Positions 13,486 to 32,000 of a DNA stretch of 32,000 nt are shown here, one piece after another. Source of the DNA: Nitrosomonas europaea (GTDB lineage: Bacteria > Pseudomonadota > Gammaproteobacteria > Burkholderiales > Nitrosomonadaceae); assembly GCF_900167395.1 (NCBI RefSeq), contig NZ_FUWK01000007.1:1-32000 (forward strand), read 5' to 3'. A program made the translations under genes and the position numbers. Each line of letters opens with the position of its first letter. The stretch's first letter is position 1. The notes under the pieces are model-generated. The model searched no databases and was not told where the DNA came from. It worked only from the letters and a program-made list of their open reading frames with translations.

Positions 13486-13539
13486 AAGGGAAAGTTTTAG
13501 AAATCACTCATTGGAAACAAGCGGGAAAACTGAATAATC

Positions 13540-14639: not shown

Positions 14640-14641
14640 AG

Positions 14642-15688: not shown

Positions 15689-15729
15689 GTGTTTAATTTT
15701 ACAACAAGTTATTTTTACCCTTAATTGAT

Positions 15730-17202
15730 ATGGATAATTTATTCGATGTGGCAGTCATCGGTGCAGGCCCTGGTGGCTATGTGGCGGCTATCCGCTGTGC
15801 GCAGCTCGGGCTCAACACCGTATGTATCGATGACTGGAAAAATGAGCAGGGCAAACCCAGTCTGGGTGGCACCTGTCTGAATGTCGGCTGTATTCCCTCC
15901 AAGGCATTGCTCGAATCTTCCGAGAATTTCGAACGGGCCGGACATAAATTTGCCGAACACGGCATCAAGGTGGATGGACTATCGATAGATGTCCCGGCCA
16001 TGATCGCTCGCAAGAACAAGATCGTCAAAGCTTTTACCGGCGGCATTGGCATGCTGTTCAAGAAAAATAAAGTGACTGCCCTGCATGGTCGCGGAACGTT
16101 GCAAAAGCATGATCAGGCACGTGATGGCGGTGATGACAGCTGGGAAATCCAGGTGAGTGCCGATGGAAAAGAGCAGTCGGTACATGCCAGGCATGTCATC
16201 ATCGCGACAGGTTCTACGCCCCGTACTCTGAAAGTGGCACCGGTCGACGGGAACAACGTGCTCGACAATGCGGGCGCCCTGGCTTTGCAACAGACTCCCG
16301 GGAAACTCGCCATCATCGGCGCGGGGGTGATCGGCCTGGAATTGGGAAGCGTCTGGCGCAGGCTGGGTGCGGAAGTGACCCTGCTGGAAGCCCAGGCTGA
16401 TTTTCTGCCGGCAGCGGATGAACAGGTGGCCAAAGAGGCCTATAAAGCGCTGACACGCGAGACAGGACTCACCATTCATACCGGAGTCGAGATCAAATCG
16501 ACCCGAGCAAGTGAAAACGGTGTGGAGATCGACTACGTCGATCGTGACAAGAATGCACAGAACCTGAAGGTGGACAAACTCATCGTAGCCGTGGGACGAG
16601 TTCCTAACACTTCCGGTCTGGGGGCTGAAGCAGCGGGATTGAAGCTCGATGAGCGCGGATATATCAGCGTGGATGAATTCTGCCAGACCAGTCTGCAAAA
16701 TGTATATGCAATTGGAGATGTCGTAAGAGGGCCGATGCTGGCACACAAGGCTTCCGAGGAAGGTGTTGCCGTTGCCGAACGGATAGCATCAGGCCGGCAG
16801 GGAGCAACTGATTCATCTGGCCATGTGGATCTTGGAATGATGCCATGGGTGATCTATACCGCGCCGGAGATTGCCTGGGTAGGTAAAACCGAACAAACGC
16901 TGAAAGCAGAAGGGGTTGCCTACAAAGCGGGGCAGTTCCCGTTCATGGCCAATGGGCGTGCCCGTGCATTGGGAGAAACGACCGGGTTCGTCAAAATTCT
17001 GGCGGATGCGGAAAGTGATCGTATCCTGGGTGTACACATGGTGGGTCCTTATGTTTCCGAGATGATTGCAGAAGCCGTAGTTGCCATGGAATTTTCCGCC
17101 AGCAGTGAAGATCTGGCGCGTATCGTACACGCCCATCCCTCACTTTCCGAATCACTGCATGAAGCTGCATTGGGCGTGGATAAGCGGGCCATTCATATCT
17201 GA
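15730..17202 (+). CDS. lpdA: Dihydrolipoyl dehydrogenase (E3)
   Basis: FAD-binding GAGPGGY, redox disulfide [13 protein letters not shown], a second dinucleotide fold [10 protein letters not shown], and C-terminal HAHPSLSE. There are no adjacent E1/E2 genes. Confidence 0.93.
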
Positions 17203-17245
17203 TTCTTGTAAGATTTCGGCCTGGATCGTTCGGGAGGAAAACTGT

Positions 17246-17656
17246 ATGAAACTGCTGTTTTTCTGTTTGTTGCTGGTTTCAATGTCTGTACCAGCGGTAG
17301 CGGGTAATGAAAAACAGATTTTCGAGCTGGAGGCGGCCATCATGCAGCAGCAACAGGAACAGCAGATCCTGTTTCAGCGGTTTCAAATGCTGCAGGAACT
17401 GCGACGCCACGAAATCACGCAGATTGAGCAGGCACTGCCGACCGGCAGTGACGTCATTATCAATGGCGAAGCACCGAAGTATGAAGACGTAGCCAGACAA
17501 CGCAAGGAACGTGCTGAAAGGGTCCATCGCTATACGGATGAGCTGGATGAACTCTACATGCGCTATCAGGAAACGGAAAATGAAAGACGGGCGCTGATCG
17601 AACAGTTGAACGGACTGAAACCGGGCCAGGATGTTTCAGCAGAGCCGAAAAAATGA
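17246..17656 (+). CDS. Hypothetical secreted Gln/Glu-rich coiled-coil protein
   Basis: ATG 17246 has a GGGAGGA RBS (17232-17238). The signal peptide MKLLFFCLLLVSMSVPAVA/G is followed by heptad-like QQQQEQQ.../ERAERVHRYTDELDELYMRYQETENERRAL. The part of the track ORF upstream of 17246 overlaps lpdA and is discarded. Confidence 0.6.
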   Translation: MKLLFFCLLLVSMSVPAVAGNEKQIFELEAAIMQQQQEQQILFQRFQMLQELRRHEITQIEQALPTGSDVIINGEAPKYEDVARQRKERAERVHRYTDELDELYMRYQETENERRALIEQLNGLKPGQDVSAEPKK

Positions 17657-17795
17657 TCGGATAGACTGGTACCTATTTCCCCCGTTCCCTGCTGACATAG
17701 GTGAAGAAGTGATTGCTGAAGCGGAACGGGTATCGTCTGATCTTCTTCACAACCCGCGTTTATGCAGATCCGGTTCCTGAAAAACGGATCCTGAT

Positions 17796-20270: not shown

Positions 20271-21422
20271 ATGCAAGTGAGAGCAGAAATGGCCTTGAGT
20301 TCATCCATCCTGAAAAAACCTCTCGATATCAAGTTTGATATCGACTTCAGCCTGCTGGCAGGCACCGCTCGCATGTTGGGGGTGGATATCAGCGCCTCGT
20401 CGATCAAGGTGGTGGAACTTTCCAGGAAAGGCAGGTTGCCTCATTCATACCGCCTGGAGCGTTATGTGATCGAGCCCATGCCGGTGGATGCACTACAGGA
20501 TGGCGGAATCAACCAGATCGAACAGGTAAGCGAATGTCTCCGGCGTGCTGTGAAACGGATGGGGGCACGGCAGAAAAAAATTGTCATGGCATTGCCGCTG
20601 ACTTCTGTCATTACCAAGAAAATCAACGTTCCCGCCGGTTTGCGTGAGGATGATCTGGAATTTCAGGTTGAAACAGAAGCCAATCAGTATGTGCCATTTG
20701 CGCTGGATGAGGTCAATCTCGATTTTCAGGTGATCGGGCCGGTTCCCGGTCATCCGGAAGAAGTGGAAGTACTGCTGGCAGCCGCCCGCAAGGATAAGGT
20801 GGAAGATCGGGTGGCAACGGCAGTATCTGCCGGACTGAAAGTGATGGTGATGGATGTCGAGCAGTTTACTGCGCAGGCCGTATCTGCCAGAGCGATCAGA
20901 CAGCAACTGCCGGATGATGGCAAGGACAAAGTGATTGCACTGATAGACATTGGTGCGAGCGTTACCCGGGTCAATGTGCTGTTGAACGGCGAATCCGTTT
21001 ATATGCGTGATCTGTCTTTTGGTGGAGATCAGCTGACACAGGAAATCCAGAACCAGTTCAATCTTTCCCCCGAAGAAGCCGAGATTGCCAAGCGCAACGG
21101 AACATTGCCGGAAAATTACCGGAATGATGTGTTGCAACCCTTTTGTGAAACGGTGGCACTGGAAGTGTCCCGGGCACTTCAGTTCTTTTTTACTTCTACC
21201 CAGTATATCCAGGTGGACTACATTTTTCTGTCAGGAGGGTGCGCAGCCATCCCCGGCCTGGAAGAGATCATCTCTGAACGTACCAAAGTGATTACCCAGA
21301 TCATCAATCCATTTGCTGACATGGAACTGTCCGGCCGGGTCGCACCGAGACAACTGAAAATGGATGCTCCCGTTCTGTTGACGGCCTGCGGCCTGGCCAT
21401 GAGAGGATTTGACCCGTCATGA
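20271..21422 (+). CDS. pilM: Type IV pilus assembly protein PilM (actin-like ATPase fold)
   Basis: LGVDISASSIKVVELS N-terminal motif and its position as first gene of pilMNOPQ. The true start is uncertain (ATG 20271, 20289 or 20373). Confidence 0.9.
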   Translation: MQVRAEMALSSSILKKPLDIKFDIDFSLLAGTARMLGVDISASSIKVVELSRKGRLPHSYRLERYVIEPMPVDALQDGGINQIEQVSECLRRAVKRMGARQKKIVMALPLTSVITKKINVPAGLREDDLEFQVETEANQYVPFALDEVNLDFQVIGPVPGHPEEVEVLLAAARKDKVEDRVATAVSAGLKVMVMDVEQFTAQAVSARAIRQQLPDDGKDKVIALIDIGASVTRVNVLLNGESVYMRDLSFGGDQLTQEIQNQFNLSPEEAEIAKRNGTLPENYRNDVLQPFCETVALEVSRALQFFFTSTQYIQVDYIFLSGGCAAIPGLEEIISERTKVITQIINPFADMELSGRVAPRQLKMDAPVLLTACGLAMRGFDPS

Positions 21423-22030
21423 TACGCATCAATCTGCTTCCACACCGTGAACTCAAACGTAAAGCGCGTCAGCAGCAGTTTGCCGTACTGGCCGGCCTCA
21501 CTGTGATACTGGGTATGCTGATCATATGGGGAGTACACGAAATGGTACTGGATAAAATCGATTACCAGAATGGGCGCAATCAGTATCTGAAGGATGAGAT
21601 CGCCGTGCTGGACCGGCAGATTGCCGAGATCAGATCGATCAGAGAAAAAATTCAGGAAATGCTGGCACGCAAAGGGATCGTCGAATCACTGCAAGGCAAT
21701 CGTGCCAAGGTGGTGCACATGCTGGACGAGGTGGCCAGGCGAGTACCGGAAGGGGTTTATCTGAAGGGCTTCAAGCAGACGAACGAGCATCTCCGTCTTG
21801 CCGGCTATGCCCAGTCCAATGCCTGGGTATCGACACTGATGCGCAATCTGGATGCTTCATCCTGGATGGAATCGCCATTGCTGATCGAAATCAAGGCGGC
21901 TACCGCAAATGGTATCAGGCTCAGTGAATTCGATCTGAATGTCAGGTTGACCGAGTTACCGGAAGAAGGCAGTCATACCGGAGGAGAGGAAATGACATCA
22001 AAAATTACCGCAGCGGCGGGACAACCATGA
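21419..22030 (+). CDS. pilN: Type IV pilus assembly protein PilN
   Basis: Hallmark N-terminus MIRINLLPHRE and a single TM segment. An ATGA overlap joins it to pilM. Confidence 0.88.
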   Translation: MIRINLLPHRELKRKARQQQFAVLAGLTVILGMLIIWGVHEMVLDKIDYQNGRNQYLKDEIAVLDRQIAEIRSIREKIQEMLARKGIVESLQGNRAKVVHMLDEVARRVPEGVYLKGFKQTNEHLRLAGYAQSNAWVSTLMRNLDASSWMESPLLIEIKAATANGIRLSEFDLNVRLTELPEEGSHTGGEEMTSKITAAAGQP

Positions 22031-22677
22031 ACCTGCTGGAAGAGTTGCGTCATGTCAATCCTAATGAGCCGGGAAGCTGGCCGGCTGTAATTAAGGCGGG
22101 TGCGCTTGCACTGTTGCTGGCGACCCTGATGGTGGCCGGTTATTTTCTGGACTGGGAAGAACAGTGGACGACGCTGGAGCAGGTGCGGGAAGAAGAAAAT
22201 ACACTCAGAAGTACTTTTCTTGCCAAAAAGACCAGTGCAGTCAATCTCGATGTTCTGCGCCAGCAACTGGCAGAAGTGCAGCAAACGCTGGGCACCTTGC
22301 TCAAGCAATTGCCCAACAAATCTGAACTGGATGCGCTGCTGGTGGATATCAACCGGGCCGGGCTGGGACGGGGGTTGCAGTTCGAGCTGTTCAAACCTGA
22401 TGCCAGGGAGACGGTGCGGGAGTTCTATGCCGAACTGCCGGTTACCATCAGAGTAACGGGCAATTATCACGATATCGGTGCTTTTGCCAGCGATGTGGCT
22501 CAGTTGCCGCGTATCGTCACGCTGCACAATATCGAGATCACTCCAGGGAAAGATCATCAGCTGATATTCAATGCGACGGCGAAAACCTTTCGTTACCTCG
22601 ACGATGAGGAAATCGCAGCACATAAAAGAGAAATGTCGGAGAAAGACAAACAGAAGAATCCCAAGGGGGCGTCATGA
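22027..22677 (+). CDS. pilO: Type IV pilus assembly protein PilO
   Basis: One TM segment and a coiled-coil plus ferredoxin-like region. Its operon position and ATGA overlaps on both sides support the call. Confidence 0.88.
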   Translation: MNLLEELRHVNPNEPGSWPAVIKAGALALLLATLMVAGYFLDWEEQWTTLEQVREEENTLRSTFLAKKTSAVNLDVLRQQLAEVQQTLGTLLKQLPNKSELDALLVDINRAGLGRGLQFELFKPDARETVREFYAELPVTIRVTGNYHDIGAFASDVAQLPRIVTLHNIEITPGKDHQLIFNATAKTFRYLDDEEIAAHKREMSEKDKQKNPKGAS

Positions 22678-23204
22678 GCAGCCGGTTCAGCTGGTGGATA
22701 GCTGTAATGATGTTGTCATTGGTGGGCGCATGCAGCCAGGAAGGTTATGAAGATCTGGAGTCTTTTGTCAGGGAATCAGGCGCTGGATTGAAGGGAAAAG
22801 TGGATCCCCTGCCTGAAATCAGGCCGCTGGAGCATTTCGTTTATCAGGCGTTTGACATCCCTGATCCCTTCAGCAATCGCAAAAACAAGCCGGGGAAACC
22901 GGATCGCAACGAACTGGAACCTGATCTGAAGCGACCGAAGGAAGCCCTGGAGAGTTTTCCGCTGGAGAACCTCGTCATGGTGGGTTCGCTGCGGCGCGGA
23001 AATAATGTGTTTGGTCTGGTCAGAGCGCCGGATAACTCGGTTCACCGCGTCAGGACCGGTAATTATCTGGGCCAGAATTTCGGCCTGATTACAGGCGTTT
23101 CCGAAGTGGAGATCAAATTGAGAGAGATTACACGGGATAGCGGGGACGAATGGAGCGAACGGGCCAGTGTACTCATGCTGCAAACTCAGGAGCAGAAGCA
23201 ATGA
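22674..23204 (+). CDS. pilP: Type IV pilus assembly lipoprotein PilP
   Basis: Lipobox-like LVGAC after the signal sequence. Operon position is between pilO and pilQ. Confidence 0.85.
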   Translation: MSSRFSWWIAVMMLSLVGACSQEGYEDLESFVRESGAGLKGKVDPLPEIRPLEHFVYQAFDIPDPFSNRKNKPGKPDRNELEPDLKRPKEALESFPLENLVMVGSLRRGNNVFGLVRAPDNSVHRVRTGNYLGQNFGLITGVSEVEIKLREITRDSGDEWSERASVLMLQTQEQKQ

Positions 23205-25357
23205 ACTGGATAACGGGAAACAAAGAGTACGAGAATCGCGTCATCGGGGTTATTCACCGGATCTGGCAATGCCTGCCAGCCTGTATTTTGCTGCTTGCAT
23301 GGGGCTATGTTCAGACTGTAACCGCATCAGTCAATACACTGCGTGCAGTGGATGTCTCGTCACAAACGGATGGCAGGACGGTTGTCAGGGTGACTCTGGA
23401 TAAACCGGTTGAAGTGCCACCTGCCGGAGTGCTGCTGAATGATCCTGATCGCCTTTATTTCGATCTGGAGCAGATGGACAGCGCACTGGGAAAGTCCGGC
23501 AGAATTTCCGGCCGGGGTGTCATCAAAAATATCGATGTCGTACCTGCCGAGGGCCGCATTCGTCTGGTGATGAATTTGTCAAACACGGCGGCCTATGAAA
23601 CCGATGTCGAAGGCAATCATTTATTGATATCGCTCAGGAGCAATGAAATCTCTGGCGGAACTCCCGCCCGTCCGTCCGTTTCGACTTCCAGTCCGGCTAG
23701 AAGTGAAACGATGAGTCTGCGCGATATCGACTTTCACCGGGGTACCCAGGGTGAAGGCAGAGTGGAAGTAGAACTTTCGCAGCCGGGTGCAGTAATCAAT
23801 GTCCATAGTCACGGCAGCAGATTGCTGGTTGAATTCATGAAGGCCTATCTGCCCCCTAATCTCGAACGGCGGTTGAATGTACTGGATTTTGCCACACCAG
23901 TGCAGTCAGTCGAAACGGTTGCCCGGGATGGCAACGTGCAGATGATCATCGAGCCGAAAGGGCGCTGGGAACATACTTCCTGGCAAACCGGCACCAGTTT
24001 CGTGGTGGAAATCAGACCGATGGCTGAAGCCGAAGATATACCCATTCACAAGAAACTGATCGATGGGGGCTATACCGGTGAAAAACTTTCACTTAATTTC
24101 CAGGATGTCGAGATTCGTTCGATTCTGCAGGTGATTGCAGACTTTACTGACCTGAATATCATCGCCAGTGACTCCGTCAAAGGTAATCTGACTTTACGGT
24201 TGAGGGATGTTCCCTGGGATCAGGCGCTGGATATCGTGCTGCAAACGAATGATCTCGATAAACGCAGGGCAGGCAATGTGATTTTCATTGCGCCCCGGGA
24301 AGAAATGGCTGCCCGCGAAAAGCTGCAACTGGAGCAGAACCAGCAAATAACCGAGCTGGAAGTACTGCAAACCGAGGCTTTCAAACTGAATTACAGAACC
24401 GCCAGCTCGATTCCGCTCAAAGGCATTCTGAGTCAGCGCGGTTCGGTGGAAGTGGATGACATCAGCAATACGCTGACCGTTACCGATATTCCCACGCGGC
24501 TGGCAGAAGTGGCAAGACACGTCGCCAACCTCGATACTCAGGTGCGGCAAGTCATGATCGAAACCCGGATCGTCGAAGCAACCGATACATTCAGCCGTAA
24601 CCTGGGAGCTCGTTTCGGGGTGCAGAACGCCACCCGGATCGGCAGCGAGACCAACGGGCGGCGGCTGGGGATTTCCGGCAATTTAGGTAATTCCAGCGGA
24701 TTGGCTGGTGGCACAGTATCCCCTTCTGGCGGGGATAATCTCAACGTCAATCTGCCGGCAGCTGCACTGGCCGGTGTTGCGGGTGGACCGGCCGCACTGG
24801 GCCTGAGCCTGATCAAGATCAACAATGGCACGCTAATCAATCTTGAACTCTCCGCACTGGAGTCGGACAGCAAGGGCCGAGTGATTGCCAGCCCGCGTCT
24901 GGTGACGGCCAATCGCGTGGAGGCAAGTATCGAACAGGGTACTGAAATTCCGTTCCAGACCATCAGCGTGACACGGCCGCAGATCCAGTTCAAAAAGGCC
25001 GTGCTTGGCCTCAAAGTGACACCGCAAATCACCCCTGATGACAACATCATCATGAAACTGCAGGTCAATCAGGATACCCGGGGAGAAAATACACCCGCCG
25101 GACCGGCGATCGACACCAAGCAGATCGTTACCGAAGTGCTGGTGGAAAATGGTGGCACAGTCGTCATCGGCGGTATTTTCGAACAGGTCGAGAAACAGGA
25201 TCGTAATCAGGTACCACTTCTGGGAGACATACCCGTACTGGGGAATCTGTTCAAAAACACTGCGAAACGGGACGATAAACGCGAATTGCTGATCTTCGTC
25301 ACCCCGCGCATCCTAAACGAAAACCTCAGTAACAATATTCGATCTGCATTAAATTGA
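23201..25357 (+). CDS. pilQ: Type IV pilus secretin PilQ
   Basis: ATG 23201 overlaps the pilP stop (ATGA). There are two AMIN-like N-terminal repeats (LRAVDVSSQ...VVRVTLDKP and LRDIDFHRG...VEVELSQPG) and a secretin C-domain (VPLLGDIPVLGNLF, ELLIFVTPRIL). The track start at 23150 is rejected. Confidence 0.95.
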   Translation: MNWITGNKEYENRVIGVIHRIWQCLPACILLLAWGYVQTVTASVNTLRAVDVSSQTDGRTVVRVTLDKPVEVPPAGVLLNDPDRLYFDLEQMDSALGKSGRISGRGVIKNIDVVPAEGRIRLVMNLSNTAAYETDVEGNHLLISLRSNEISGGTPARPSVSTSSPARSETMSLRDIDFHRGTQGEGRVEVELSQPGAVINVHSHGSRLLVEFMKAYLPPNLERRLNVLDFATPVQSVETVARDGNVQMIIEPKGRWEHTSWQTGTSFVVEIRPMAEAEDIPIHKKLIDGGYTGEKLSLNFQDVEIRSILQVIADFTDLNIIASDSVKGNLTLRLRDVPWDQALDIVLQTNDLDKRRAGNVIFIAPREEMAAREKLQLEQNQQITELEVLQTEAFKLNYRTASSIPLKGILSQRGSVEVDDISNTLTVTDIPTRLAEVARHVANLDTQVRQVMIETRIVEATDTFSRNLGARFGVQNATRIGSETNGRRLGISGNLGNSSGLAGGTVSPSGGDNLNVNLPAAALAGVAGGPAALGLSLIKINNGTLINLELSALESDSKGRVIASPRLVTANRVEASIEQGTEIPFQTISVTRPQIQFKKAVLGLKVTPQITPDDNIIMKLQVNQDTRGENTPAGPAIDTKQIVTEVLVENGGTVVIGGIFEQVEKQDRNQVPLLGDIPVLGNLFKNTAKRDDKRELLIFVTPRILNENLSNNIRSALN

Positions 25358-25385
25358 ATTCCTGATACAGTGTTTTGTAAGAAAG

Positions 25386-25410
25386 AAGGGGGCTTGATAT
25401 AGCCCCCTTT
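25386..25410 (+). terminator. Rho-independent terminator after pilQ and left boundary of the accessory operon
   Basis: The stem aagggggc (25386-25393) pairs with gccccctt (25402-25409) around the 8-nt loop ttgatata. TTTATCATT follows, and an A-rich run upstream makes it potentially bidirectional. Confidence 0.6.
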
Positions 25411-25440
25411 ATCATTACTGAATTTGAATCTGTGAAAAAA

Positions 25441-25448
25441 GAGGAGGA
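25441..25448 (+). promoter_or_regulatory. Strong Shine-Dalgarno sequence for the helicase gene
   Basis: GAGGAGGA lies 9 nt upstream of ATG 25458. Confidence 0.6.
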
Positions 25449-25457
25449 TGGGTACAG

Positions 25458-28355
25458 ATGGTGCAGCAACTTCTGACGCCGCATCAAAGCCAGTACATCG
25501 CCTGGCAGCTTACTCGCCGGGCAGCCAAAGACAGCGTAGAGTCGCTGGCCTCGACGTTGGTTGATTCTCAGGTTGACCTCAACCCGCACCAGGTCGATGC
25601 AGCTCTCTTCGCATGCCGTAATCCGCTGTCGCGTGGTGTGATCCTGGCGGACGAGGTAGGGTTGGGCAAGACGATTGAAGCGGGGCTGGTCATTTCCCAA
25701 CATTGGGCAGAGCGGCGTCGCAAGATGCTCATCATCGTGCCTGCCAACCTGCGCAAGCAATGGCACCAGGAATTGCAGGACAAGTTCAATCTTCAGGGGT
25801 TGGTCCTCGAAGCGAAAAACTATAACGCCATGCGCAAGGAAGGTGTCACGCAACCCTTTCTGCATGCAGGCGGGCCGATCATCTGTTCCTACCAGTTCGC
25901 CAAAGCCAAGGCCGATGACCTCAGGCGCATCCATTGGGATCTGGTGGTCATGGATGAAGCCCACCGTCTGCGCAATGTCTACAAGAACGGCAACGTCATT
26001 GCCCGGACGATCCGCGATGCGCTGGAGCACGTCGATGCGAAAGTCCTGCTGACGGCCACACCGCTGCAAAACACCCTGCTGGAGCTTTACGGCCTGGTGA
26101 GCATGATAGACGAGCGTGTGTTTGGCGATCTCGATAGTTTCCGAACTCAATTTTCTGGCGTCAGAACCGAACAATCCAACCGGGCACTGCGAGAGCGGTT
26201 GACGCCGCTTTGCAAGCGCACGCTGCGCCGGCAAGTCCAACAGTACGTGCCGTATACCGCACGTATCGCCATCGTCGAAGAATTCACGCCCAGCCAGGAA
26301 GAGCAGCAGCTCTCCGCATTGGTCGCCGATTACCTGCGCCGCCCTAACCTCAAGGCACTGCCTGAAGGCCAGCGTCAACTGATCTCGTTGGTGCTATGGA
26401 AGCTACTGGCCTCGTCCAGCCACGCCATTGCCGGGGCGCTGGAGACCATGGCCAATCGTCTTCAAGGACAATTGGATGAGTTGCCTGATGTCCCTGACCT
26501 GACAGAGTCGCTGGATGACGACTACGAAGGACTGGATGAAACTGCCGACGAGTGGAATGGCGCAACCGCCAATGATGCCGATGCCAGCGCCAACGAACGA
26601 GCAGCCATTGCCGACGAAGCGGCCGAACTTCGACGCTTCAAGGAGTTGGCTACGAGCATTCGACAGAATGCCAAAGGGCAGGCGCTGCTGACAGCACTGG
26701 ACAAGGCTTTTGCCGAGCTGGAGCGTTTAGGAGCGAGCAAGAAGGCCATCATTTTCACCGAGTCCAAGCGCACCCAGAATTACCTGCTTTCCCTGTTGGC
26801 TGAAACACCCTACGGCATCGTGCTGTTCAACGGCACCAACACCGATGCCAGGGCGCAGGCCATTTACAAAGACTGGCTGCAACGGCATGAAGGCAGCGAT
26901 CGCATTACTGGCTCCAAAACCGCTGACACCCGCGCCGCGCTGGTTGAGCACTTCAAGGAGCGCGGCACCATCATGATCGCCACGGAGGCAGGCGCGGAAG
27001 GCATCAACCTCCAGTTCTGCTCTCTGGTCATCAATTACGACCTGCCGTGGAATCCACAGCGTATCGAACAGCGCATCGGTCGCTGCCACCGTTACGGGCA
27101 AAAGCACGATGTGGTGGTGGTCAACTTCGTGGACCGCAGCAACGAGGCGGATGCCCGTGTCTATCAGCTGCTGTCGCAGAAGTTCAAGCTGTTCGAAGGC
27201 GTATTCGGCGCCAGTGACGAAGTGCTGGGAGCCATTGGCTCCGGTGTGGATTTCGAGCGGCGGATCGCCGCCATCTACCAAAATTGTCGCGAACCCGAAG
27301 AAATCCGCAGCCGCTTCGAAGACCTCCAGCGCGAGCTTTCCAGCGAGATCGACGAAGCGATGCTCAGAACACGGCAGCTTCTGCTGGAGAATTTCGACGA
27401 GGAGGTGCAGGAGAAACTGCGCATCCACAGCCAGGACAGCCAGGCAGTGCTGAACAAGTACGAGCGCCTGCTGATGGACTTGAGCCGCACGGAATTGCGG
27501 GATCATGCCCGCTTTGATACTGCCGAAGAGGTCAATGGCTTTGTCCTGCACAGCCTGCCCGATGGGCTAGGTCTCGCCACTGGCAGCCGAGAACAGGCAG
27601 TGATGGCGGGGCGCTATGAACTGCCCAGACGCAGCGGCGATGCGCATCTTTACCGTATGGGCCATCCCTTGGCGGAATGGGCCATTGAGCGCGCCAAGGC
27701 AAGAGACCTACAAGCCCCTGCACGATTGGCGTTCGACTACGCCGCCTATGGCAAACGGCTCGTCAGCCTTGAAAAATGGCGCGGCCAGTGTGGCTGGCTG
27801 AGCGTGACCCTTTTGTCCGTCGAAACCCTGAACGATCAGGAGCAGCACCTGGTTGTTTCCGCCTGCACCCAAGCGGGGGAAGCGCTGCCAGAGGACGATC
27901 CAGAAAAACTGCTGCGCCTGCCAGCGCAGGTCGAAGGCGACGCGCACCTGCAAGTATGTGCCGAGCTCGTCGCCAACGTCGAAAGCCGGAAAAGCGTACT
28001 TCTGCGCGGGATCAATCAGCGCAATCTGGGCTACTTCGAGCAAGAGGTGCAAAAGCTCGATACTTGGGCCGATGACCTGAAGCTCGGGCTGGAGCAGGAA
28101 ATCAAGGCCATCGACGGCGAGATCAAGGAGGTGCGCCGCACCGCCGCTGCGTCACCCACGCTGGAAGAAAAGCTGGCACATCAGAAACGCCAGCGAGAAC
28201 TGGAAACCAGGCGCAGCAAACTACGCCGCGACCTGTTTGCGCGGCAGGATGAGGTGGAAGAGCAGCGGAACAAGCTGATTGGGGAGTTGGAAGAGCAGCT
28301 CAAGCAGCAGGTAGCGGAACGCATGTTGTTTACCGTCGAATGGGAGTTGACGTAA
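25458..28355 (+). CDS. SNF2-family (SF2) DNA helicase/translocase with a ~330-aa C-terminal extension ending in a coiled coil
   Basis: Motif I ILADEVGLGKT (~25641-25673), motif II DEAH (25953-25964), motif III LLLTATPLQN, motif V ATEAGAEGINLQ, and motif VI QRIGRCHRYGQ (~27069-27101). The C-terminus EIKAIDGEIKEVRR...RQDEVEEQRNKLIGELEEQLKQQ is heptad-like. Confidence 0.9.
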   Translation: MVQQLLTPHQSQYIAWQLTRRAAKDSVESLASTLVDSQVDLNPHQVDAALFACRNPLSRGVILADEVGLGKTIEAGLVISQHWAERRRKMLIIVPANLRKQWHQELQDKFNLQGLVLEAKNYNAMRKEGVTQPFLHAGGPIICSYQFAKAKADDLRRIHWDLVVMDEAHRLRNVYKNGNVIARTIRDALEHVDAKVLLTATPLQNTLLELYGLVSMIDERVFGDLDSFRTQFSGVRTEQSNRALRERLTPLCKRTLRRQVQQYVPYTARIAIVEEFTPSQEEQQLSALVADYLRRPNLKALPEGQRQLISLVLWKLLASSSHAIAGALETMANRLQGQLDELPDVPDLTESLDDDYEGLDETADEWNGATANDADASANERAAIADEAAELRRFKELATSIRQNAKGQALLTALDKAFAELERLGASKKAIIFTESKRTQNYLLSLLAETPYGIVLFNGTNTDARAQAIYKDWLQRHEGSDRITGSKTADTRAALVEHFKERGTIMIATEAGAEGINLQFCSLVINYDLPWNPQRIEQRIGRCHRYGQKHDVVVVNFVDRSNEADARVYQLLSQKFKLFEGVFGASDEVLGAIGSGVDFERRIAAIYQNCREPEEIRSRFEDLQRELSSEIDEAMLRTRQLLLENFDEEVQEKLRIHSQDSQAVLNKYERLLMDLSRTELRDHARFDTAEEVNGFVLHSLPDGLGLATGSREQAVMAGRYELPRRSGDAHLYRMGHPLAEWAIERAKARDLQAPARLAFDYAAYGKRLVSLEKWRGQCGWLSVTLLSVETLNDQEQHLVVSACTQAGEALPEDDPEKLLRLPAQVEGDAHLQVCAELVANVESRKSVLLRGINQRNLGYFEQEVQKLDTWADDLKLGLEQEIKAIDGEIKEVRRTAAASPTLEEKLAHQKRQRELETRRSKLRRDLFARQDEVEEQRNKLIGELEEQLKQQVAERMLFTVEWELT

Positions 28356-31300
28356 TGGCAAAACGAGAAATTTCCCGAGGTTCGCTCTGGAATCAATGGG
28401 ATCTGCATGTGCACACGCCAGCTTCATTCCACTGGTTGGGGAAGAAATTTGAGGGCGACCTGTCATCTGATGTCAATAAGGCGCTAGTGGATGAAATGAT
28501 TGATGCCATGAACAAGGCAGAACCTGCGGTTTTTGCCATCATGGATTATTGGACATTCGATGGTTGGTTCGCGCTCAAGCGACGGCTTGCAGAACAAGAC
28601 TCTCCTAAGCTTCACAAGAAAGTGTTCCCTGGAATCGAGCTGCGCCTTTCTGCCCCTACTGCGATAAGACTTAATGCTCATGTTGTTTTTTCGGATGAAA
28701 TCCCCGACCAACACCTCAAGGATTTCTTGGCAGATCTTAAGATTGAGCGGACTGGCCGTTCTGTCTCCAAAGATGCACTTATTGCCCTGGCCAGAGCAAC
28801 TGCCCCGGACATGCTTGAAAAGAAAGGGCATAAAAAAGATGTAGTAGTTACCGATGATGCGGATGCCCTTTTGGCCGGGTACAAGTTGGCTGAGATTAAA
28901 GCTGATAGCTACAAAGATGCTATATCAAAGGTCCCCAATGGATTGGCGATTGGTTTTATGCCATATGACACGAGTGATGGCTTGGCGGAGGTCAAATGGG
29001 AGGAGCATTACTCATATTTCCTTGGGCTTTTGGAGTCATCGCCAATTTTTGAATCCAGAAATCTGGAGCTTAGGTTCGCCTTCCTTTGTGAGGAGACGGA
29101 GAAGAACAAGGGCTGGATCGGAAATTTCAAGCATGGTCTGAAAGGAATTCCAAGGCTTGTGGTTGCTGGCAGTGATGCGCACTGCTTTATTGGCACTCCT
29201 GGAGATAACGACAAGCGCGGCTATGGTGACTTCCCGTCAGGAAAGAAAACCTGGATTAAAGCCGATCCATCGTTTCGTGGCCTAAAGCAAGCCATTCTTG
29301 AGCCTGCCAAACGCTCTTTCATTGGGCAGAAGCCCCCAAAATTACAAGAGATCGAATCCAACAAGGTTTATTACATCGACTCGCTGGAGGTCGCTAAGAC
29401 TGGCAGCGAGTCGGATATTGGTAAATGGCTGGATGGCTGTGACATTCCGCTGAACCCCGATCTTGTTGCAGTCATTGGTAACAAGGGCAGTGGTAAGAGT
29501 GCGTTAGCGGATGTCATTGCGACACTTGGAAATTCCAAGCAATCAAGGCACTTCAGCTTTTTGAGGAAAGAACGTTTTCTTGGGAAGGCTGGCGAGCCTG
29601 CACGCCACTTCACAGGTACTTTGACATGGTGCGATGAAAGCACTGAGGCGCGGCCACTCAATGAGTTACCTTCGGAAGAGAAGCCGGAACTGGTTCGCTA
29701 CATCCCTCAAGGCTACTTCGAGGAACTTTGCAATGAACACGTTTCTGGAAAATCGAATGCATTCGAGAAAGAACTGCGTGCCGTTATCTTTTCGCACACA
29801 AGTGAGGAGATGCGGCTTGGAGCGCTCGACTTCGATCAGTTAACTGAACAGCAGGAGCAATCGCTCAGAAACCGACTGGGCGAGTATCGCAAGGTGTTGT
29901 CATCCATCAATGCTGATATTGTGCGCATTGAAGAGCAGCTTCAGCCTATTGAGTTAGAAAGGTTGAATGAACTTCTTTTGCTGAAGATCAAACAAATTGA
30001 TGAGCATGAAAAGCTAAGGCCAGTGGAGGTCGCCGCGCCAGCAGAAGCGCTAGATCCAGAACAAAAGAAAGCTTCGGAAGAGCTGGTTTCAATAAACCAA
30101 AAAATAGAATCATCCCAAAAGCGTTCACAAGAGATTGCGTTGGAGAACACCGATCTCGCCAAGCGGCAAAAGGCTATCACCAATATCCGCGAACAGTTGA
30201 GATTATTTCAGCGCGCATTCGAGCAGGCGCAACAGACTGTCTCCGATGACCTGAAAATTCTGGGTATCACATGGCCTGATTTAGCTGTTATTGATATCAA
30301 ACAGCATATCCTTGATGAAAAATCGGCAGAAATTTCCAAGAAACAGGAACAGTTGAAGAGCGAAGCTGAAAAGATTGCCGAAGAGCTGAAGGAGAGTGTC
30401 GCATCGCAGCAAAGTTTTACGGCGAAATTGAATGCTCCCCAGCAGCAATTCGAAGCGTACCAGCAACAACTTTCCGAATGGAACAAAAAGCTGGCTTATC
30501 TGAAAGGTTCACCTACCGAGCCCGAAACCAAGGTCGGCTTGGAAACTCGTATTGAACAGATCAAGATGTTGCCGGAACAGCACACGGAGTTGGAAGAAAA
30601 ACGCTTGCGCCTATCTGGTGAGATTTTCGACACATTAGACGCACAGCGCAAAGCACGCGAAGAGCTTTTCAAACCGGTGCAAGATCTGATCCAGAAAAAC
30701 AGCTTGATACGTGAGGATTACAAGCTGCAGTTTCAGGCAACGCTTGCAGCCTCTTCGGAGGCTATCGCCGATCAGTTGTTTGCGCTAATCAAGCAGACTT
30801 GGGGGGATTTCCGAGGTCAGGACGAGGCGCCTTCGACGATTAGAAAACTGTTTGACAACTACGATTTGAACTCCAAAGAGGGGGCTCTGGCATTCATCGC
30901 CGCCTTGCAGGAAAAGGTTCAAGAAGCCTCAACGCTCTCCGGTGCGACTGTTGGAATTTTTAATCTGGTCAAGAAGGGGCAGTCTGCTATATCAGTATAT
31001 GACTTGATCTTTGGGTTGAACTTCCTTGAGCCGAGATATTCGTTGCTGTTCCAGGACACGCAGATTGAGCAGCTATCGCCCGGTCAACGCGGTGCATTAC
31101 TGCTGATTTTCTATTTGTTGGTGGACAAGGGTAAGACACCGATTATCCTCGACCAGCCAGAAGAAAACTTGGACAATGAGACAGTATTCCGGTTGCTTGT
31201 TCCGGTGCTTTCCGAAGCCAAGAAGCAACGGCAGATCATCATGGTCACGCACAATCCGAACTTGGCGGTTGTGTGCGATGCAGAGCAAATCATCTACGCA

Positions 31301-31438
31301 AAGTTTGATCGTGCTGACAATTCAACGGTCAGCTATGAATCCGGCGCTATCGAGAACTCCAATCTGAATGGAATTGTTGTAACAATTCTAGAAGGGACGA
31401 AGCCGGCATTCGACAACCGTTCCGGGAAGTATCACTAA
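28355..31438 (+). CDS. Fusion protein: N-terminal PHP-family metal-dependent phosphoesterase plus Rad50/SbcC/SMC-like coiled-coil ABC ATPase
   Basis: ATG 28355 shares one base with the helicase TAA (TAATG). PHP motifs are WDLHVHTP (28406-28414 codes HVH), GIELR, NAHVVF and GSDAH (29168-29182). ABC motifs are Walker A GNKGSGKS (29477-29500), signature LSPGQRG (31073-31093), Walker B IILDQPE (31142-31162) and H-loop VTHNP (31244-31258). About 530 aa separate Walker A from the signature, and that stretch is rich in heptad-like E/K/Q/L sequence. Confidence 0.85.
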   Translation: MAKREISRGSLWNQWDLHVHTPASFHWLGKKFEGDLSSDVNKALVDEMIDAMNKAEPAVFAIMDYWTFDGWFALKRRLAEQDSPKLHKKVFPGIELRLSAPTAIRLNAHVVFSDEIPDQHLKDFLADLKIERTGRSVSKDALIALARATAPDMLEKKGHKKDVVVTDDADALLAGYKLAEIKADSYKDAISKVPNGLAIGFMPYDTSDGLAEVKWEEHYSYFLGLLESSPIFESRNLELRFAFLCEETEKNKGWIGNFKHGLKGIPRLVVAGSDAHCFIGTPGDNDKRGYGDFPSGKKTWIKADPSFRGLKQAILEPAKRSFIGQKPPKLQEIESNKVYYIDSLEVAKTGSESDIGKWLDGCDIPLNPDLVAVIGNKGSGKSALADVIATLGNSKQSRHFSFLRKERFLGKAGEPARHFTGTLTWCDESTEARPLNELPSEEKPELVRYIPQGYFEELCNEHVSGKSNAFEKELRAVIFSHTSEEMRLGALDFDQLTEQQEQSLRNRLGEYRKVLSSINADIVRIEEQLQPIELERLNELLLLKIKQIDEHEKLRPVEVAAPAEALDPEQKKASEELVSINQKIESSQKRSQEIALENTDLAKRQKAITNIREQLRLFQRAFEQAQQTVSDDLKILGITWPDLAVIDIKQHILDEKSAEISKKQEQLKSEAEKIAEELKESVASQQSFTAKLNAPQQQFEAYQQQLSEWNKKLAYLKGSPTEPETKVGLETRIEQIKMLPEQHTELEEKRLRLSGEIFDTLDAQRKAREELFKPVQDLIQKNSLIREDYKLQFQATLAASSEAIADQLFALIKQTWGDFRGQDEAPSTIRKLFDNYDLNSKEGALAFIAALQEKVQEASTLSGATVGIFNLVKKGQSAISVYDLIFGLNFLEPRYSLLFQDTQIEQLSPGQRGALLLIFYLLVDKGKTPIILDQPEENLDNETVFRLLVPVLSEAKKQRQIIMVTHNPNLAVVCDAEQIIYAKFDRADNSTVSYESGAIENSNLNGIVVTILEGTKPAFDNRSGKYH

Positions 31439-31439
31439 T

Positions 31440-32000
31440 ATGGCAAGTAACCAAAAACTCGAACTCACCTGGATTGGAAAGGAGAAGCGGGCCAAGCTAG
31501 AACCGCGCATCCTGCTCGAAGATCCTGAGAAGTCTTATCATGCCAAGCAGCGTGTTTCGGAGAGTGACGTCTTCGACAACCGGCTGATTTTCGGTGATAA
31601 CCTGCTGGCTCTGAAGGCATTGGAGCAAGAGTTTGCGGGTGAGGTGAAGTGTGTATTTATTGATCCTCCTTACAACACCGGCAGCGCGTTCACACACTAT
31701 GACGACGGGTTGGAGCATTCCATCTGGCTGGGATTGATGCGGGATCGGCTGGAGATCATTAAGCGGCTATTGTCGAATGATGGTTCGTTGTGGATCACAA
31801 TTGATGACAATGAATGCCATTATCTCAAAGTGCTATGCGATGAGATTTTTGGACGAGCCAACTACAAGACTACGATTACATGGCAAAGAAAATACAGCGT
31901 CAGTAATAATTTTCAGGGTATAGCAAGTATCTGCGATTTCGTGCTTGTTTATTCCAAAAGTGAAGCATTCAAAAATAATCTGCTTCCGAGAAGCGAGGAG
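31440..32000 (+). CDS. Type III Mod-like / beta-class (N6-adenine or N4-cytosine) DNA methyltransferase, 3'-truncated by the window edge
   Basis: This ORF is not in the ORF track; I translated it by hand. ATG 31440 lies 1 nt after the ATPase stop. The product begins MASNQKLELTWIGKEKRAKLEPR and contains NRLIFGDNLLALKAL and VFIDPPYNTG (motif IV, DPPY). The frame stays open to base 32000. The LxWxGK ... GDNL ... IDPPYNTG order matches type III Mod proteins such as EcoP15I Mod. Confidence 0.88.
   Translation, partial: MASNQKLELTWIGKEKRAKLEPRILLEDPEKSYHAKQRVSESDVFDNRLIFGDNLLALKALEQEFAGEVKCVFIDPPYNTGSAFTHYDDGLEHSIWLGLMRDRLEIIKRLLSNDGSLWITIDDNECHYLKVLCDEIFGRANYKTTITWQRKYSVSNNFQGIASICDFVLVYSKSEAFKNNLLPRSEE

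What the first reader, a model, noticed from the sequence alone, without database searches (positions are those of the whole stretch)
25358..32000. Helicase / PHP-ABC ATPase / methyltransferase operon: candidate non-canonical methylation-linked defence system
Three same-strand genes follow the pilQ terminator. They have their own strong RBS (GAGGAGGA) and are translationally coupled: helicase TAA and ATPase ATG share a base (TAATG, 28353-28357), and the ATPase TAA is followed by T then the ATG of the methyltransferase (31436-31442). The genes encode an SNF2 translocase, a PHP phosphoesterase fused to a Rad50/SbcC-like ABC ATPase, and a type III Mod-like DPPY methyltransferase. The visible part contains none of the usual partners of known modification systems: no Res (type III), no HsdR/HsdS (type I), no PglZ/BrxC (BREX), and no DrmA/DrmB/PLD (DISARM). 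The only nuclease-like module is the PHP domain. My hypothesis is a 'split Res' logic. In type III Res, an SF2 motor and a PD-(D/E)xK nuclease sit in one protein. Here an SNF2 motor and a separate PHP nuclease-ATPase may jointly attack unmethylated DNA while the Mod-like enzyme marks self DNA. The gene content also recalls two things from the defence-system literature: helicase-methylase-ATPase ('Hma'-type) candidates, and the SNF2 + N6-MTase half of class 1 DISARM. I cannot tell these apart without profile searches, and the operon continues beyond 32000.
Basis: partly seen in the sequence, partly recalled or inferred. Interest (0 to 1): 0.9.

Follow-up and report, generated by a model that had tools for sequence, protein, structure and literature searches.

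The report
SNF2-headed type III restriction operon
The three genes are the first half of a six-gene anti-phage operon: an ordinary type III restriction-modification pair (its restriction gene lies just past the window edge) led by an extra SNF2 motor protein, with three unrelated defence genes nested inside, so the defence role is real but the proposed "restriction without Res" idea is wrong.

Summary
In detail: an SNF2 helicase (25458-28355), a PHP + ABC ATPase (28355-31438) and a type III Mod (31440 onwards) are overlapping, co-directional genes. Contigs identical to the window show the operon continues Mod - YhcG/DUF1016 - RhuM - Res. Res is a full-length type III enzyme with an intact PD-ExK nuclease motif, so the "split Res" hypothesis fails.

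The ATPase is a named family, NCBIfam TrlF. It is a distant relative of the single-gene defence protein Ppl.

Comparative data change what counts as core:
- SNF2 homologues (40-79% identity) precede Mod + Res in about 34 of 41 informative metagenomic loci and in 7 of 7 plasmids inspected.
- All 23 plasmids with an orthologous Res also carry the SNF2.
- SNF2 and Res divergences track each other (Spearman 0.91).
- TrlF occurs in only 3 of 80 such loci, sits in other defence contexts elsewhere, and has a deviant GC content.

My reading is therefore a three-component type III R-M system (DrmD-like SNF2 + Mod + Res) that hosts embedded cargo genes (TrlF, YhcG, RhuM). It is not DISARM, Hma or BREX. 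I found no published description of the SNF2-type III triad in 9 searches, so it may be a new variant. Interest is moderate.

The parts
25386..25409 (.). GC-rich hairpin between pilQ (stop at 25357) and the defence operon. It probably ends pilQ transcription.
   Evidence: Read directly. One search finds 9 pairs (6 G-C) and a 6-nt loop. The T-tract rule is met only on the minus strand, so its function as a + strand terminator is plausible but not shown.
25441..25448 (+). Shine-Dalgarno-like GAGGAGGA, 9 nt upstream of the SNF2 ATG.
   Evidence: No sigma-70-like promoter was found in 25200-25600.
25458..28355 (+). DrmD-like SNF2 (SWI2/SNF2) dsDNA translocase, 965 aa. It is the first gene of the operon and a constant third partner of this type III R-M lineage.
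   Evidence: Pfam SNF2-rel_dom 9e-35 and Helicase_C 3e-21. PADLOC DrmD PDLC02619 658 bits, against HmaA at only 170 bits. NCBIfam DrmD_b 663 bits (cutoff 950) and DrmD 259 bits over residues 37-939 (cutoff 610). The best PDB relatives are RapA and chromatin remodellers. Motifs I (GLGKT), II (DEAH), III (TATP) and VI (QRIGRxHRYGQ) are invariant. It is followed by Mod + Res in the plasmids and metagenomic loci examined.
28355..31438 (+). TrlF-family protein, 1027 aa: N-terminal PHP phosphoesterase (about aa 1-345, 28355-29389) fused to an ABC/SMC-like ATPase with a long coiled-coil insert (Walker A GNKGSGKS at aa 375-382, 29477-29500; signature LSPGQRG and Walker B ILDQPE near the C-terminus). 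I interpret it as an embedded, Ppl-like defence gene.
   Evidence: NCBIfam NF045780 TrlF_fam_ATP 673 bits (cutoff 350), aligned 1-944 of 944. Ppl_antiphage only 98.6 bits (cutoff 1000). PADLOC Ppl 1.4e-22. Pfam SMC_N, AAA_21, AAA_15. PHP metal-ligand residues are invariant and the Foldseek top hits are PHP proteins. The ATG overlaps the SNF2 stop (TAATG). GC is 47-48% against 58-59% in SNF2.
31440..32000 (+). First 187 codons of the type III Mod methyltransferase (567 aa in full, ending at window-equivalent 33143). The operon continues beyond the window with YhcG/DUF1016 (33140-34180), RhuM (34177-35223) and type III Res (35220-37958), all in window-equivalent coordinates.
   Evidence: Pfam N6_N4_Mtase. 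PADLOC MTase_III PDLC03636 724 bits, full length. The DPPY motif is at aa 75-78, and FAGSGTTG lies C-terminal to a hypervariable region with no invariant residue (about aa 140-310). The extension comes from L001 and L166, which are identical to the window over 16,543 and 13,646 bases with 0 mismatches. YhcG_C + DUF1016_N match PADLOC PDC-S02, RhuM matches PDC-S05, and Res matches REase_III PDLC03648 at 710 bits.

Best explanation
The window holds the 5' half of a six-gene, translationally coupled defence operon inserted after pilQ in a Nitrosomonas genome: SNF2 - TrlF - Mod - YhcG - RhuM - Res.

Shown: its backbone is a type III restriction-modification system. Mod is a beta-class N6/N4 methyltransferase with a hypervariable target-recognition region. 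Res is an SF2 ATPase with a C-terminal PD-ExK nuclease.

Shown: this R-M lineage carries a constant third gene at the front, a catalytically intact DrmD-like SNF2 translocase.

Inferred from the family: Mod marks one strand of an asymmetric site and gives Res its sequence recognition.

Inferred by analogy with EcoP15I: Mod-Res complexes on unmodified DNA use ATP to slide and cut on collision.

Inferred, weakest step: the SNF2 motor works with Res on the DNA, either driving or clearing the path for long-range communication or displacing bound proteins. This is the same unresolved job that DrmD has next to DrmMI in class 1 DISARM.

Shown by distribution: the genes between the three core genes (TrlF, YhcG, RhuM) are embedded cargo, that is, independent second-line defence genes co-transcribed with the host system.

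Inferred from its distant relative Ppl: TrlF is most likely a DNA-end-activated PHP 3'-5' exonuclease controlled by its ABC ATPase. In this setting it could degrade the ends that Res creates.
For: Operon and coupling:
- All six genes are on one strand with 1-4 nt overlaps or a 1-nt gap.

R-M identity:
- MTase_III 724 bits and REase_III 710 bits, both full length.
- Walker A, DESH, motif VI and D...ExK are invariant in Res across 26 loci. DPPx and FAGSGTTG are invariant in Mod, and its central region has no invariant residue.

SNF2 as a core gene:
- 7 of 7 inspected plasmids from six phyla or classes have SNF2 - [0-4 other genes] - MTase - [0-2 other genes] - Res-like helicase without TrlF. Many have a small HTH gene in front.
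- Of 41 SNF2-seeded metagenomic loci with at least 8 kb downstream, 36 have a Mod-like gene and 34 have Mod plus Res or a large ORF. Most exceptions are ORF-calling or contig-end artefacts.
- The partners are PADLOC type III in all three sub-architectures.
- 23 of 23 plasmids with a full-length Res orthologue also carry the SNF2.
- Pairwise identity matrices give SNF2 versus Res Spearman 0.91 (0.79 within the close clade). TrlF versus SNF2 or Res gives 0.57-0.61 (0.38-0.42 within the close clade).

TrlF as cargo:
- It is present in only 3 of 80 SNF2-seeded loci.
- In a TrlF-seeded genome scan, 40 of 74 loci have SNF2. The rest lie next to TrlG-like/DUF2130, Shedu, SbcCD-like, GmrSD or type I HsdS genes, or are solitary.
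- In the TrlF tree the SNF2-linked forms make one derived clade plus scattered members.
- GC is mosaic.

Other evidence:
- Other occupants of the same slots are known or candidate defence genes: AIPR/AbiU, LmuB-like, HerA, HEC-01A, VapC, Abi, DUF2130.
- Embedding is an established pattern for Hma, BREX, DISARM and type I R-M (bioRxiv 10.1101/2024.01.29.577857).
- The Ppl mechanism is taken from PMC12904381.
Against: - No experiment exists on any member. The role of the SNF2 protein is inferred only from linkage and co-divergence.
- The SNF2 tree is not perfectly congruent with the three Res sub-architectures, so the partnership is modular, not strictly co-speciating.
- In the proteobacterial clade to which the window belongs, TrlF is almost always present and its ATG overlaps the SNF2 stop. 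A lineage-specific functional tie between TrlF and the R-M system cannot be excluded.
- The TrlF-Ppl relation rests on a weak match confined mainly to the C-terminal half (98.6 bits).
- PHP activity is unproven: Pfam gives no hit and the structural model has low confidence.
- Gene calls in the fetched loci came from a crude longest-ORF caller.
Confidence: 0.75

Rival explanations
1. The SNF2 motor and the PHP-ATPase together replace a missing Res, attacking unmethylated DNA while the Mod-like enzyme protects self DNA.
For: Within the window no Res is visible, and the three genes are tightly coupled. SNF2 and TrlF co-occur in 40 of 74 TrlF-seeded loci.
Against: A complete Res with an intact nuclease motif lies in the same operon. 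The same SNF2-Mod-Res triad exists without TrlF in 77 of 80 SNF2-seeded loci and in all 7 plasmids inspected. Every plasmid with this Res also has the SNF2.
Confidence: 0.03
2. SNF2 and TrlF form a lineage-specific two-protein end-processing machine recruited to the R-M system. Res makes the break, TrlF (a PHP exonuclease with a Rad50-like ATPase) resects it, and SNF2 feeds in DNA. On this view TrlF is a functional accessory, not independent cargo.
For: The SNF2 stop and the TrlF start overlap (TAATG). In the TrlF clade above about 67% identity, almost every locus is SNF2-TrlF-...-Mod-Res, and 33 loci carry all four genes. Ppl is reported to act on 3'-OH DNA ends (PMC12904381), and Res cleavage would supply such ends.
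Against: TrlF at 73% identity occurs without SNF2 (L054). Members at 55-61% identity occur alone or with other partners. Other, unrelated genes occupy the same slot in other lineages. TrlF co-diverges less with SNF2 and Res than those two do with each other, and it has a different GC content. AIPR or DUF2130 genes can sit between SNF2 and TrlF.
Confidence: 0.15
3. A degenerate or variant class 1 DISARM system. SNF2 is DrmD and the methyltransferase is DrmMI, with DrmABC lost or replaced.
For: The best PADLOC and NCBIfam hits of the helicase are DrmD models. In class 1 DISARM, drmD sits next to an N6-adenine methylase, and deleting the pair removes protection against one phage (bioRxiv 10.1101/2021.12.28.474362).
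Against: Both DrmD models score below their curated cutoffs (663 against 950; 259 against 610). The methylase is PF01555 type III Mod, not pfam13659. No DrmA, DrmB (DUF1998) or DrmC (PLD) gene appears in L001/L166 or in any related locus examined. The large downstream helicases all match PADLOC REase_III models, and Res has no DrmA hit.
Confidence: 0.04

Closest known systems
Classical type III restriction-modification systems (EcoP1I, EcoP15I: Mod + Res)
   Same: A beta-class N6/N4 Mod with DPPY and a variable recognition region. A Res with SF2 ATPase motifs and a C-terminal PD-(D/E)xK nuclease. mod lies upstream of res in one operon. Both proteins give full-length matches to PADLOC MTase_III and REase_III models.
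   Different: A DrmD-like SNF2 translocase gene always precedes mod in this lineage. Other defence genes are nested between the core genes. The Res belongs to the PDLC03648 clade and not to the EcoP15I-like PDLC03647 clade, although EcoP15I-like systems with the same SNF2 also exist.
Class 1 DISARM front module (DrmD SNF2 helicase + DrmMI N6-adenine methylase)
   Same: An SNF2 helicase most similar to DrmD models sits at the head of a methylase-containing defence operon. DrmD's role is likewise unknown.
   Different: There is no DrmA, DrmB or DrmC. The methylase family differs (PF01555 against pfam13659). The effector is a type III Res. The helicase falls below both DrmD equivalog cutoffs.
Ppl (Gao et al. 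2020 single-gene system: PHP exonuclease + NTPase)
   Same: PHP phosphoesterase fused to an ABC-type ATPase. There is a weak but significant sequence relation (NCBIfam 2.5e-28, PADLOC 1.4e-22). It is defence-associated.
   Different: It scores far below the Ppl cutoff (98.6 against 1000 bits). It belongs to the separate TrlF family. It is about 150 aa longer, and here it is embedded in an R-M operon, not standing alone.
Photorhabdus temperature-restricting locus, trlR-trlF-trlG (PMC7554251)
   Same: The window protein is a full-length member of the TrlF family named after this locus. TrlG-like (AlbA_2 + HATPase_c_4) - DUF2130 - TrlF arrangements occur among its relatives (L037, L038, L054).
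   Different: There is no trlG or trlR here. In Photorhabdus the growth-arrest phenotype mapped to trlG, and no function was shown for trlF.
Hma / DUF499-centred BREX-related systems with embedded genes (PADLOC; Payne et al.)
   Same: The layout is helicase - methylase - ATPase with an SNF2 helicase first. Other defence genes are frequently nested between the core genes. HEC-01A-like cargo appears in related loci.
   Different: HmaB is an m5C methylase and HmaC a DUF499 ATPase (PMC8565338, PMC12839542). Here the methylase is an N6/N4 type III Mod and the third core protein is Res. The HmaA model scores 170 bits against 658 for DrmD.

Membership tests
Type III restriction-modification system | Mod: beta-class N6/N4 DNA methyltransferase (motif IV DPPY before the TRD, motif I FxGxG after it) | tested here: met
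   PF01555 2e-47 and PADLOC MTase_III PDLC03636 724 bits over 1-530. DPPY is at aa 75-78 and FAGSGTTG at aa 338-345, with a region of no invariant residues between them.
Type III restriction-modification system | Res: SF2 helicase-like ATPase with a C-terminal PD-(D/E)xK endonuclease, encoded downstream of mod | tested here: met
   This gene is outside the window but on contigs identical to it. It has PF04851 ResIII and PADLOC REase_III PDLC03648 at 710 bits, covering 2-858 of 871. GVGKT, DESH, QSIGRGLR and Y..DFV...E.K are invariant in 26 loci. Two cargo genes lie between mod and res.
Type III restriction-modification system | Hemimethylation of an asymmetric site and cleavage that needs two inversely oriented unmodified sites | not testable with these tools
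   This needs methylome sequencing and in vitro cleavage assays.
DISARM class 1 | DrmD SNF2 helicase (NCBIfam equivalogs NF038317 / NF038318) | tested here: inconclusive
   These are the best hits, but both fall below the curated cutoffs: 663 bits against 950, aligned to 21-671 of 868, and 259 bits against 610.
DISARM class 1 | Core triplet DrmA (helicase), DrmB (DUF1998), DrmC (PLD) and a DrmMI methylase (pfam13659) | tested here: not met
   None is present in the operon or its flanks. Res has only REase_III hits in PADLOC. The methylase is PF01555.
Hma (helicase / m5C methylase / DUF499 ATPase) | HmaB m5C methyltransferase and HmaC DUF499 ATPase alongside an HmaA SNF2 helicase | tested here: not met
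   HmaA scores 170 bits, well below DrmD. Neither the ATPase nor the methylase gives a PADLOC HmaB or HmaC hit. Family definitions come from PMC8565338 and PMC12839542.
BREX | PglZ phosphatase and BrxC ATPase with a PglX methylase | tested here: not met
   No such gene is in the operon. BrxHI/BrxHII models hit only the shared SNF2 core.
TrlF family (NCBIfam NF045780) | Full-length match above the curated cutoff | tested here: met
   673 bits against a cutoff of 350, aligned 8-1027 to 1-944 of 944. An identical protein is named 'TrlF family AAA-like ATPase [Nitrosomonas]'.
Ppl anti-phage protein (NCBIfam NF042955) | Full-length match above the curated cutoff | tested here: not met
   98.6 bits against a cutoff of 1000. 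The best stretch covers residues 575-1022 only. The resemblance is in architecture and distant homology, not membership.
PHP (polymerase and histidinol phosphatase) superfamily | Conserved metal-ligand motifs (HxH, D/H, E, H, DxH) on a PHP barrel fold | tested here: inconclusive
   The motifs are met: D16, H18, H20, D64, E95, H109, D274 and H276 are invariant in 30 sequences down to 25% identity. Pfam PF02811 and the PDB sequence or profile searches give no hit. The AF2 model is poor (pLDDT 58.6), but its 13 best PDB matches are all PHP proteins (best E 2.5e-4, TM 0.36-0.43).
Embedded defence candidates PDC-S02 / PDC-S05 (PADLOC) | Full-length HMM match, and a position nested inside a multi-gene defence system on the same strand | tested here: met
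   YhcG/DUF1016 matches PDC-S02 at 4.6e-158 and RhuM matches PDC-S05 at 2.3e-145. Both lie between mod and res with overlapping stop and start codons.

The most novel reading that the evidence does not exclude
SNF2-Mod-Res may be a previously unrecognised, widespread three-component class of type III restriction-modification. In it a DrmD-like SNF2 translocase is an obligate subunit that changes how the enzyme communicates along DNA, for example by relaxing the two-site head-to-head rule or by stripping anti-restriction proteins. The operon would also serve as a general docking platform in which second-line defence genes such as TrlF are exchanged.
Probability: 0.3. Interest if true: 0.65.

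Novelty: new variant of a known kind. Interest (0 to 1): 0.42.

Why it matters
Type III R-M enzymes have been treated as two-subunit machines for 50 years. A large, phylogenetically broad lineage that always carries an SNF2 motor in front of mod would raise two questions: how does long-range communication work in these systems, and what does DrmD do in class 1 DISARM, where its role is still untested?

The locus also extends the 'embedded defence gene' pattern, described so far for Hma, BREX, DISARM and type I R-M, to type III R-M. That gives a cheap way to nominate new defence candidates. Examples are TrlF, DUF2130 and the 666-aa protein with no Pfam match.

For this particular window the practical message is more modest. 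Standard tools would annotate it as type III R-M plus PDC-S02, PDC-S05 and an orphan DrmD-like helicase. The 'Res-less' novelty disappears once the contig is extended.

Tried and rejected
- PHP by sequence: Pfam, single-sequence PDB search and a 30-sequence profile against the PDB gave nothing. Only conserved motifs and a low-confidence fold search support it.
- Hma: rejected after reading the definitions (m5C methylase, DUF499 ATPase) and seeing no HmaB or HmaC hits.
- DISARM and BREX: rejected because their core genes are absent.
- 'TrlF is a core partner of the SNF2': this looked true from the TrlF-seeded genome scan (40 of 74 loci). That was a seeding bias. The SNF2-seeded metagenome scan found TrlF in 3 of 80 loci.
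- Strict co-speciation of SNF2 with the Res sub-architectures: the NJ tree shows partial clustering with exceptions only.
- Phase-variable repeats in mod or elsewhere in the operon: none.
- Mobile-element borders: no integrase, transposase or tRNA next to the operon. No Rfam family in the window.
- Literature searches (9 of 10 used) for a published description of SNF2 + type III Mod/Res found none. The library does not cover most subscription journals, so this absence is weak evidence.
I extended the contig through TrlF instead.

Full report
**1. Observation**

The + strand of the window carries three co-directional ORFs after pilQ (stop at 25357):
- 25458-28355, 965 aa.
- 28355-31438, 1027 aa. 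An in-frame ATG at 28340 is not the start used by gene callers or homologues.
- An open frame from 31440 to the window end.

GAGGAGGA lies at 25441-25448. The junctions are TAATG at 28353-28357 and TAAtATG at 31436-31442, exactly as reported. A 9-bp GC-rich hairpin at 25386-25409 separates pilQ from the operon. The consensus scan accepts it as a terminator only in the minus orientation.

Profile searches confirm the domain reading:
- SNF2-rel_dom + Helicase_C in gene 1.
- SMC_N / AAA_15 / AAA_21 in gene 2.
- N6_N4_Mtase in gene 3, with PADLOC MTase_III at 4e-91 on the visible fragment.

**2. The PHP domain**

Pfam, a PDB sequence search and a 30-sequence profile search all fail to detect PHP. 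Two other results support it. An alignment of 30 TrlF N-termini, down to 25% identity, keeps D16, H18, H20, D64, E95, H109, D274 and H276 invariant. This is the PHP metal-ligand pattern. An AlphaFold model of residues 1-350 was poor (pLDDT 58.6) because the allowed alignment was shallow. Even so, its 13 best Foldseek matches in the PDB are all PHP proteins: RNase AM (E 2.5e-4), BAD_1165, Cv1693 and the PHP domains of PolC and Pol III alpha. I accept the PHP assignment with moderate confidence.

**3. The operon does not stop at the window edge**

Looking up the exact helicase and ATPase proteins returned contigs (L001, L166) that are identical to the window over 16,543 and 13,646 bases. The operon there is:
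- SNF2 (965 aa)
- TrlF (1027 aa)
- Mod (567 aa)
- DUF1016/YhcG PD-(D/E)xK protein (346 aa)
- RhuM (348 aa)
- Res (912 aa)

Every junction overlaps by 1-4 nt or leaves a 1-nt gap. Convergent housekeeping genes follow (DUF488, isochorismatase, a Rieske oxidoreductase), and no integrase is present.

Res is a full-length match to PADLOC REase_III PDLC03648 (710 bits) and Mod to MTase_III PDLC03636 (724 bits). Across 26 related loci the following are invariant:
- In Res: Walker A, DESH, motif VI and a C-terminal Y..DFV...E.K nuclease motif.
- In Mod: DPPx and FAGSGTTG. Its central 170 residues have no invariant position, as expected of a swappable recognition domain.

YhcG and RhuM match PADLOC candidates PDC-S02 and PDC-S05. 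Both candidates were themselves nominated because they lie embedded in other defence systems (bioRxiv 10.1101/2024.01.29.577857).

**4. What the ATPase is**

It is a full-length member of NCBIfam NF045780, the 'TrlF family AAA-like ATPase' (673 bits against a cutoff of 350). It is only a weak relative of the anti-phage protein Ppl (98.6 bits against a cutoff of 1000; PADLOC 1.4e-22). An identical protein is annotated in Nitrosomonas, and 75-89% identical copies occur in Pseudomonas, Xanthomonas, Stenotrophomonas, Cupriavidus, Dyella and Acidithiobacillus.

The family name comes from the Photorhabdus temperature-restricting locus trlR-trlF-trlG. There, growth arrest mapped to trlG and no function was shown for trlF (PMC7554251). 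A recent review describes Ppl as a single-gene PHP 3'-5' ssDNA exonuclease that is held off by bound NTPs and triggered by 3'-OH ends (PMC12904381).

**5. Which genes travel together**

*TrlF-seeded scan.* A scan of one genome per species returned 74 loci. In 40 of them an SNF2 orthologue lies just upstream. In 33 all four of SNF2, TrlF, Mod and Res are present in that order. Between them are 0-4 kb of variable genes: AIPR/AbiU-like in 19 loci, DUF2130 in 8, a 666-aa protein with no Pfam match in 6, and YhcG or RhuM in others.

The remaining TrlF genes sit in other defence settings: next to TrlG-like/DUF2130, Shedu, SbcCD-like, GmrSD or type I HsdS genes, or alone on plasmids.

This scan is biased by its seed, so I ran the reverse experiment.

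*SNF2-seeded searches.*
- Full-length SNF2 homologues at 44-54% identity on plasmids of Deinococcus, Salmonella, Klebsiella, Cupriavidus, a planctomycete, Hymenobacter and Roseomonas are all followed by a DNA methyltransferase and a Res-like DEAD/DEAH protein. None has TrlF, and other cargo fills the gaps (AIPR, VapC, Abi, AAA ATPases).
- A metagenome scan with an SNF2 alignment gave 80 loci at 40-79% identity. Of the 41 with at least 8 kb downstream, 36 have a Mod-like gene and 34 have Mod plus Res or a large ORF. Most exceptions are ORF-calling or contig-end artefacts. Only 3 of the 80 loci have TrlF.
- The partners fall into three sub-architectures, all type III by PADLOC (PDLC03636/03648, 03646/03654, and 03647).

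*Res-seeded check.* All 23 plasmids with a full-length orthologue of this Res also carry the SNF2.

**6. Co-divergence and composition**

Over 26 complete loci, the pairwise identity matrices of SNF2 and Res correlate at Spearman 0.91 (0.79 within the close clade), although the two genes sit at opposite ends of the operon. TrlF correlates with either at 0.57-0.61 (0.38-0.42 within the close clade). Mod correlates less, as expected from recognition-domain exchange.

In the window's own operon, SNF2 is 58-59% GC and Res 55-57%. TrlF and the first two thirds of Mod are 47-48%, and the flanking chromosome is about 52%.

In the TrlF tree, the SNF2-linked genes form one derived clade with one exception (L054). 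A neighbouring clade mixes contexts, and the outer clades never have SNF2 or R-M neighbours. TrlF was therefore captured into this operon and is not an original part of it. The SNF2 tree clusters only partly by Res sub-architecture, so the SNF2-type III partnership is modular.

**7. Interpretation**

*Shown:* the locus is a type III R-M system with a constant extra SNF2 gene and three embedded cargo genes.

*Inferred from the family:* Mod methylates an asymmetric site and guides Res. Res cuts unmodified DNA after ATP-dependent sliding and collision.

*Inferred from linkage only:* the SNF2 translocase, whose ATPase motifs are invariant, works with Res on DNA. This is the same unresolved role as DrmD beside DrmMI in class 1 DISARM, where deleting the pair abolished protection against one phage (bioRxiv 10.1101/2021.12.28.474362).

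*Inferred from Ppl:* TrlF is a DNA-end-triggered PHP exonuclease. It may act independently, or it may act on ends produced by Res.

**8. Comparison with known systems**

- Not Hma: that system has an m5C methylase and a DUF499 ATPase.
- Not DISARM: DrmABC are absent, the methylase family differs, and the helicase scores below the DrmD cutoffs.
- Not BREX.
- It is a member of type III R-M, of the TrlF family, and of PDC-S02 and PDC-S05.

Embedding of defence genes is documented for Hma, BREX, DISARM and type I R-M. I did not find it described for type III R-M. I also found no description of an SNF2-Mod-Res triad in the searchable library. That library omits most subscription journals, so the triad may be known elsewhere.

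**9. Verdict**

Its central hypothesis is refuted. What remains of interest is a variant of a known kind: a widespread SNF2-headed type III R-M lineage that acts as a host for embedded defence genes. I score interest at 0.42.

Noticed in passing
window 20271-25357 (+), 17796-20108 (-): The defence operon is inserted directly after a complete pilMNOPQ type IV pilus operon. A PBP1A-type transglycosylase/transpeptidase is encoded divergently upstream. NCBIfam has a 'pilus expression-regulating Snf2 family helicase' model, but the window's SNF2 scores only 90 bits against its cutoff of 1100, so the adjacency to pil genes looks coincidental.
   Followed up: partly
L001 13001-17000 (window-equivalent about 28458-32457): GC content drops to 47-48% across TrlF and the first two thirds of Mod. 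SNF2 is 58-59% and Res 55-57%. This points to a recombination breakpoint inside mod, near the end of the variable recognition region.
   Followed up: partly
L168 (JGI 3300014930), 13086-18336: An otherwise identical copy of the operon has Mod, RhuM and Res each split into two or more ORFs. This is either decay of the R-M system in that population or assembly errors.
   Followed up: no
L037 7195-13039, L038 1661-7520, L054 1004-9388: Some TrlF relatives sit in a TrlG-like (AlbA_2 + HATPase_c_4 + HTH) - DUF2130 - TrlF arrangement. It echoes the Photorhabdus temperature-restricting locus, with DUF2130 as an unreported extra partner. DUF2130 is also found directly upstream of TrlF inside SNF2-type III operons (L028, L030, L036, L063).
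   Followed up: partly
L013 19342-21096 and the equivalent gene in L015, L016, L017, L053, L055: A 585-aa GHKL (HATPase_c_3, MORC-like) protein with a weak Shedu SduA_C-like C-terminus follows Res on the same strand in six loci. It recalls the MORC / type III R-M association reported by Iyer et al. 2008.
   Followed up: no
L014 14991-16988 and the equivalent gene in L018, L020, L049, L070, L071: A conserved 666-aa protein with no Pfam or PADLOC hit is embedded between TrlF/AIPR and Mod in six loci. By position it is a candidate defence gene.
   Followed up: no
L030 4336-14331; L033 8589-18178: Two incomplete variants. L030 has SNF2-DUF2130-TrlF-Res with no detectable Mod. L033 has DUF2130-TrlF-Mod-YhcG-Res with no SNF2. 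Both are MAG contigs, so this may be real loss or mis-assembly.
   Followed up: no
L080 6232-6432, L081 11763-12008, L082 11804-12004, L083 11789-11998: Most plasmid-borne SNF2-Mod-Res operons start with a small helix-turn-helix gene that overlaps or abuts the SNF2 start, possibly a controller protein. The Nitrosomonas operon has no such gene in the 100 bp after pilQ.
   Followed up: no
window 25326-26378 (-), 26727-27551 (-): Long antisense ORFs of 350 and 274 aa overlap the SNF2 gene. They have no independent support and are most likely by-products of the high GC content of that gene.
   Followed up: no
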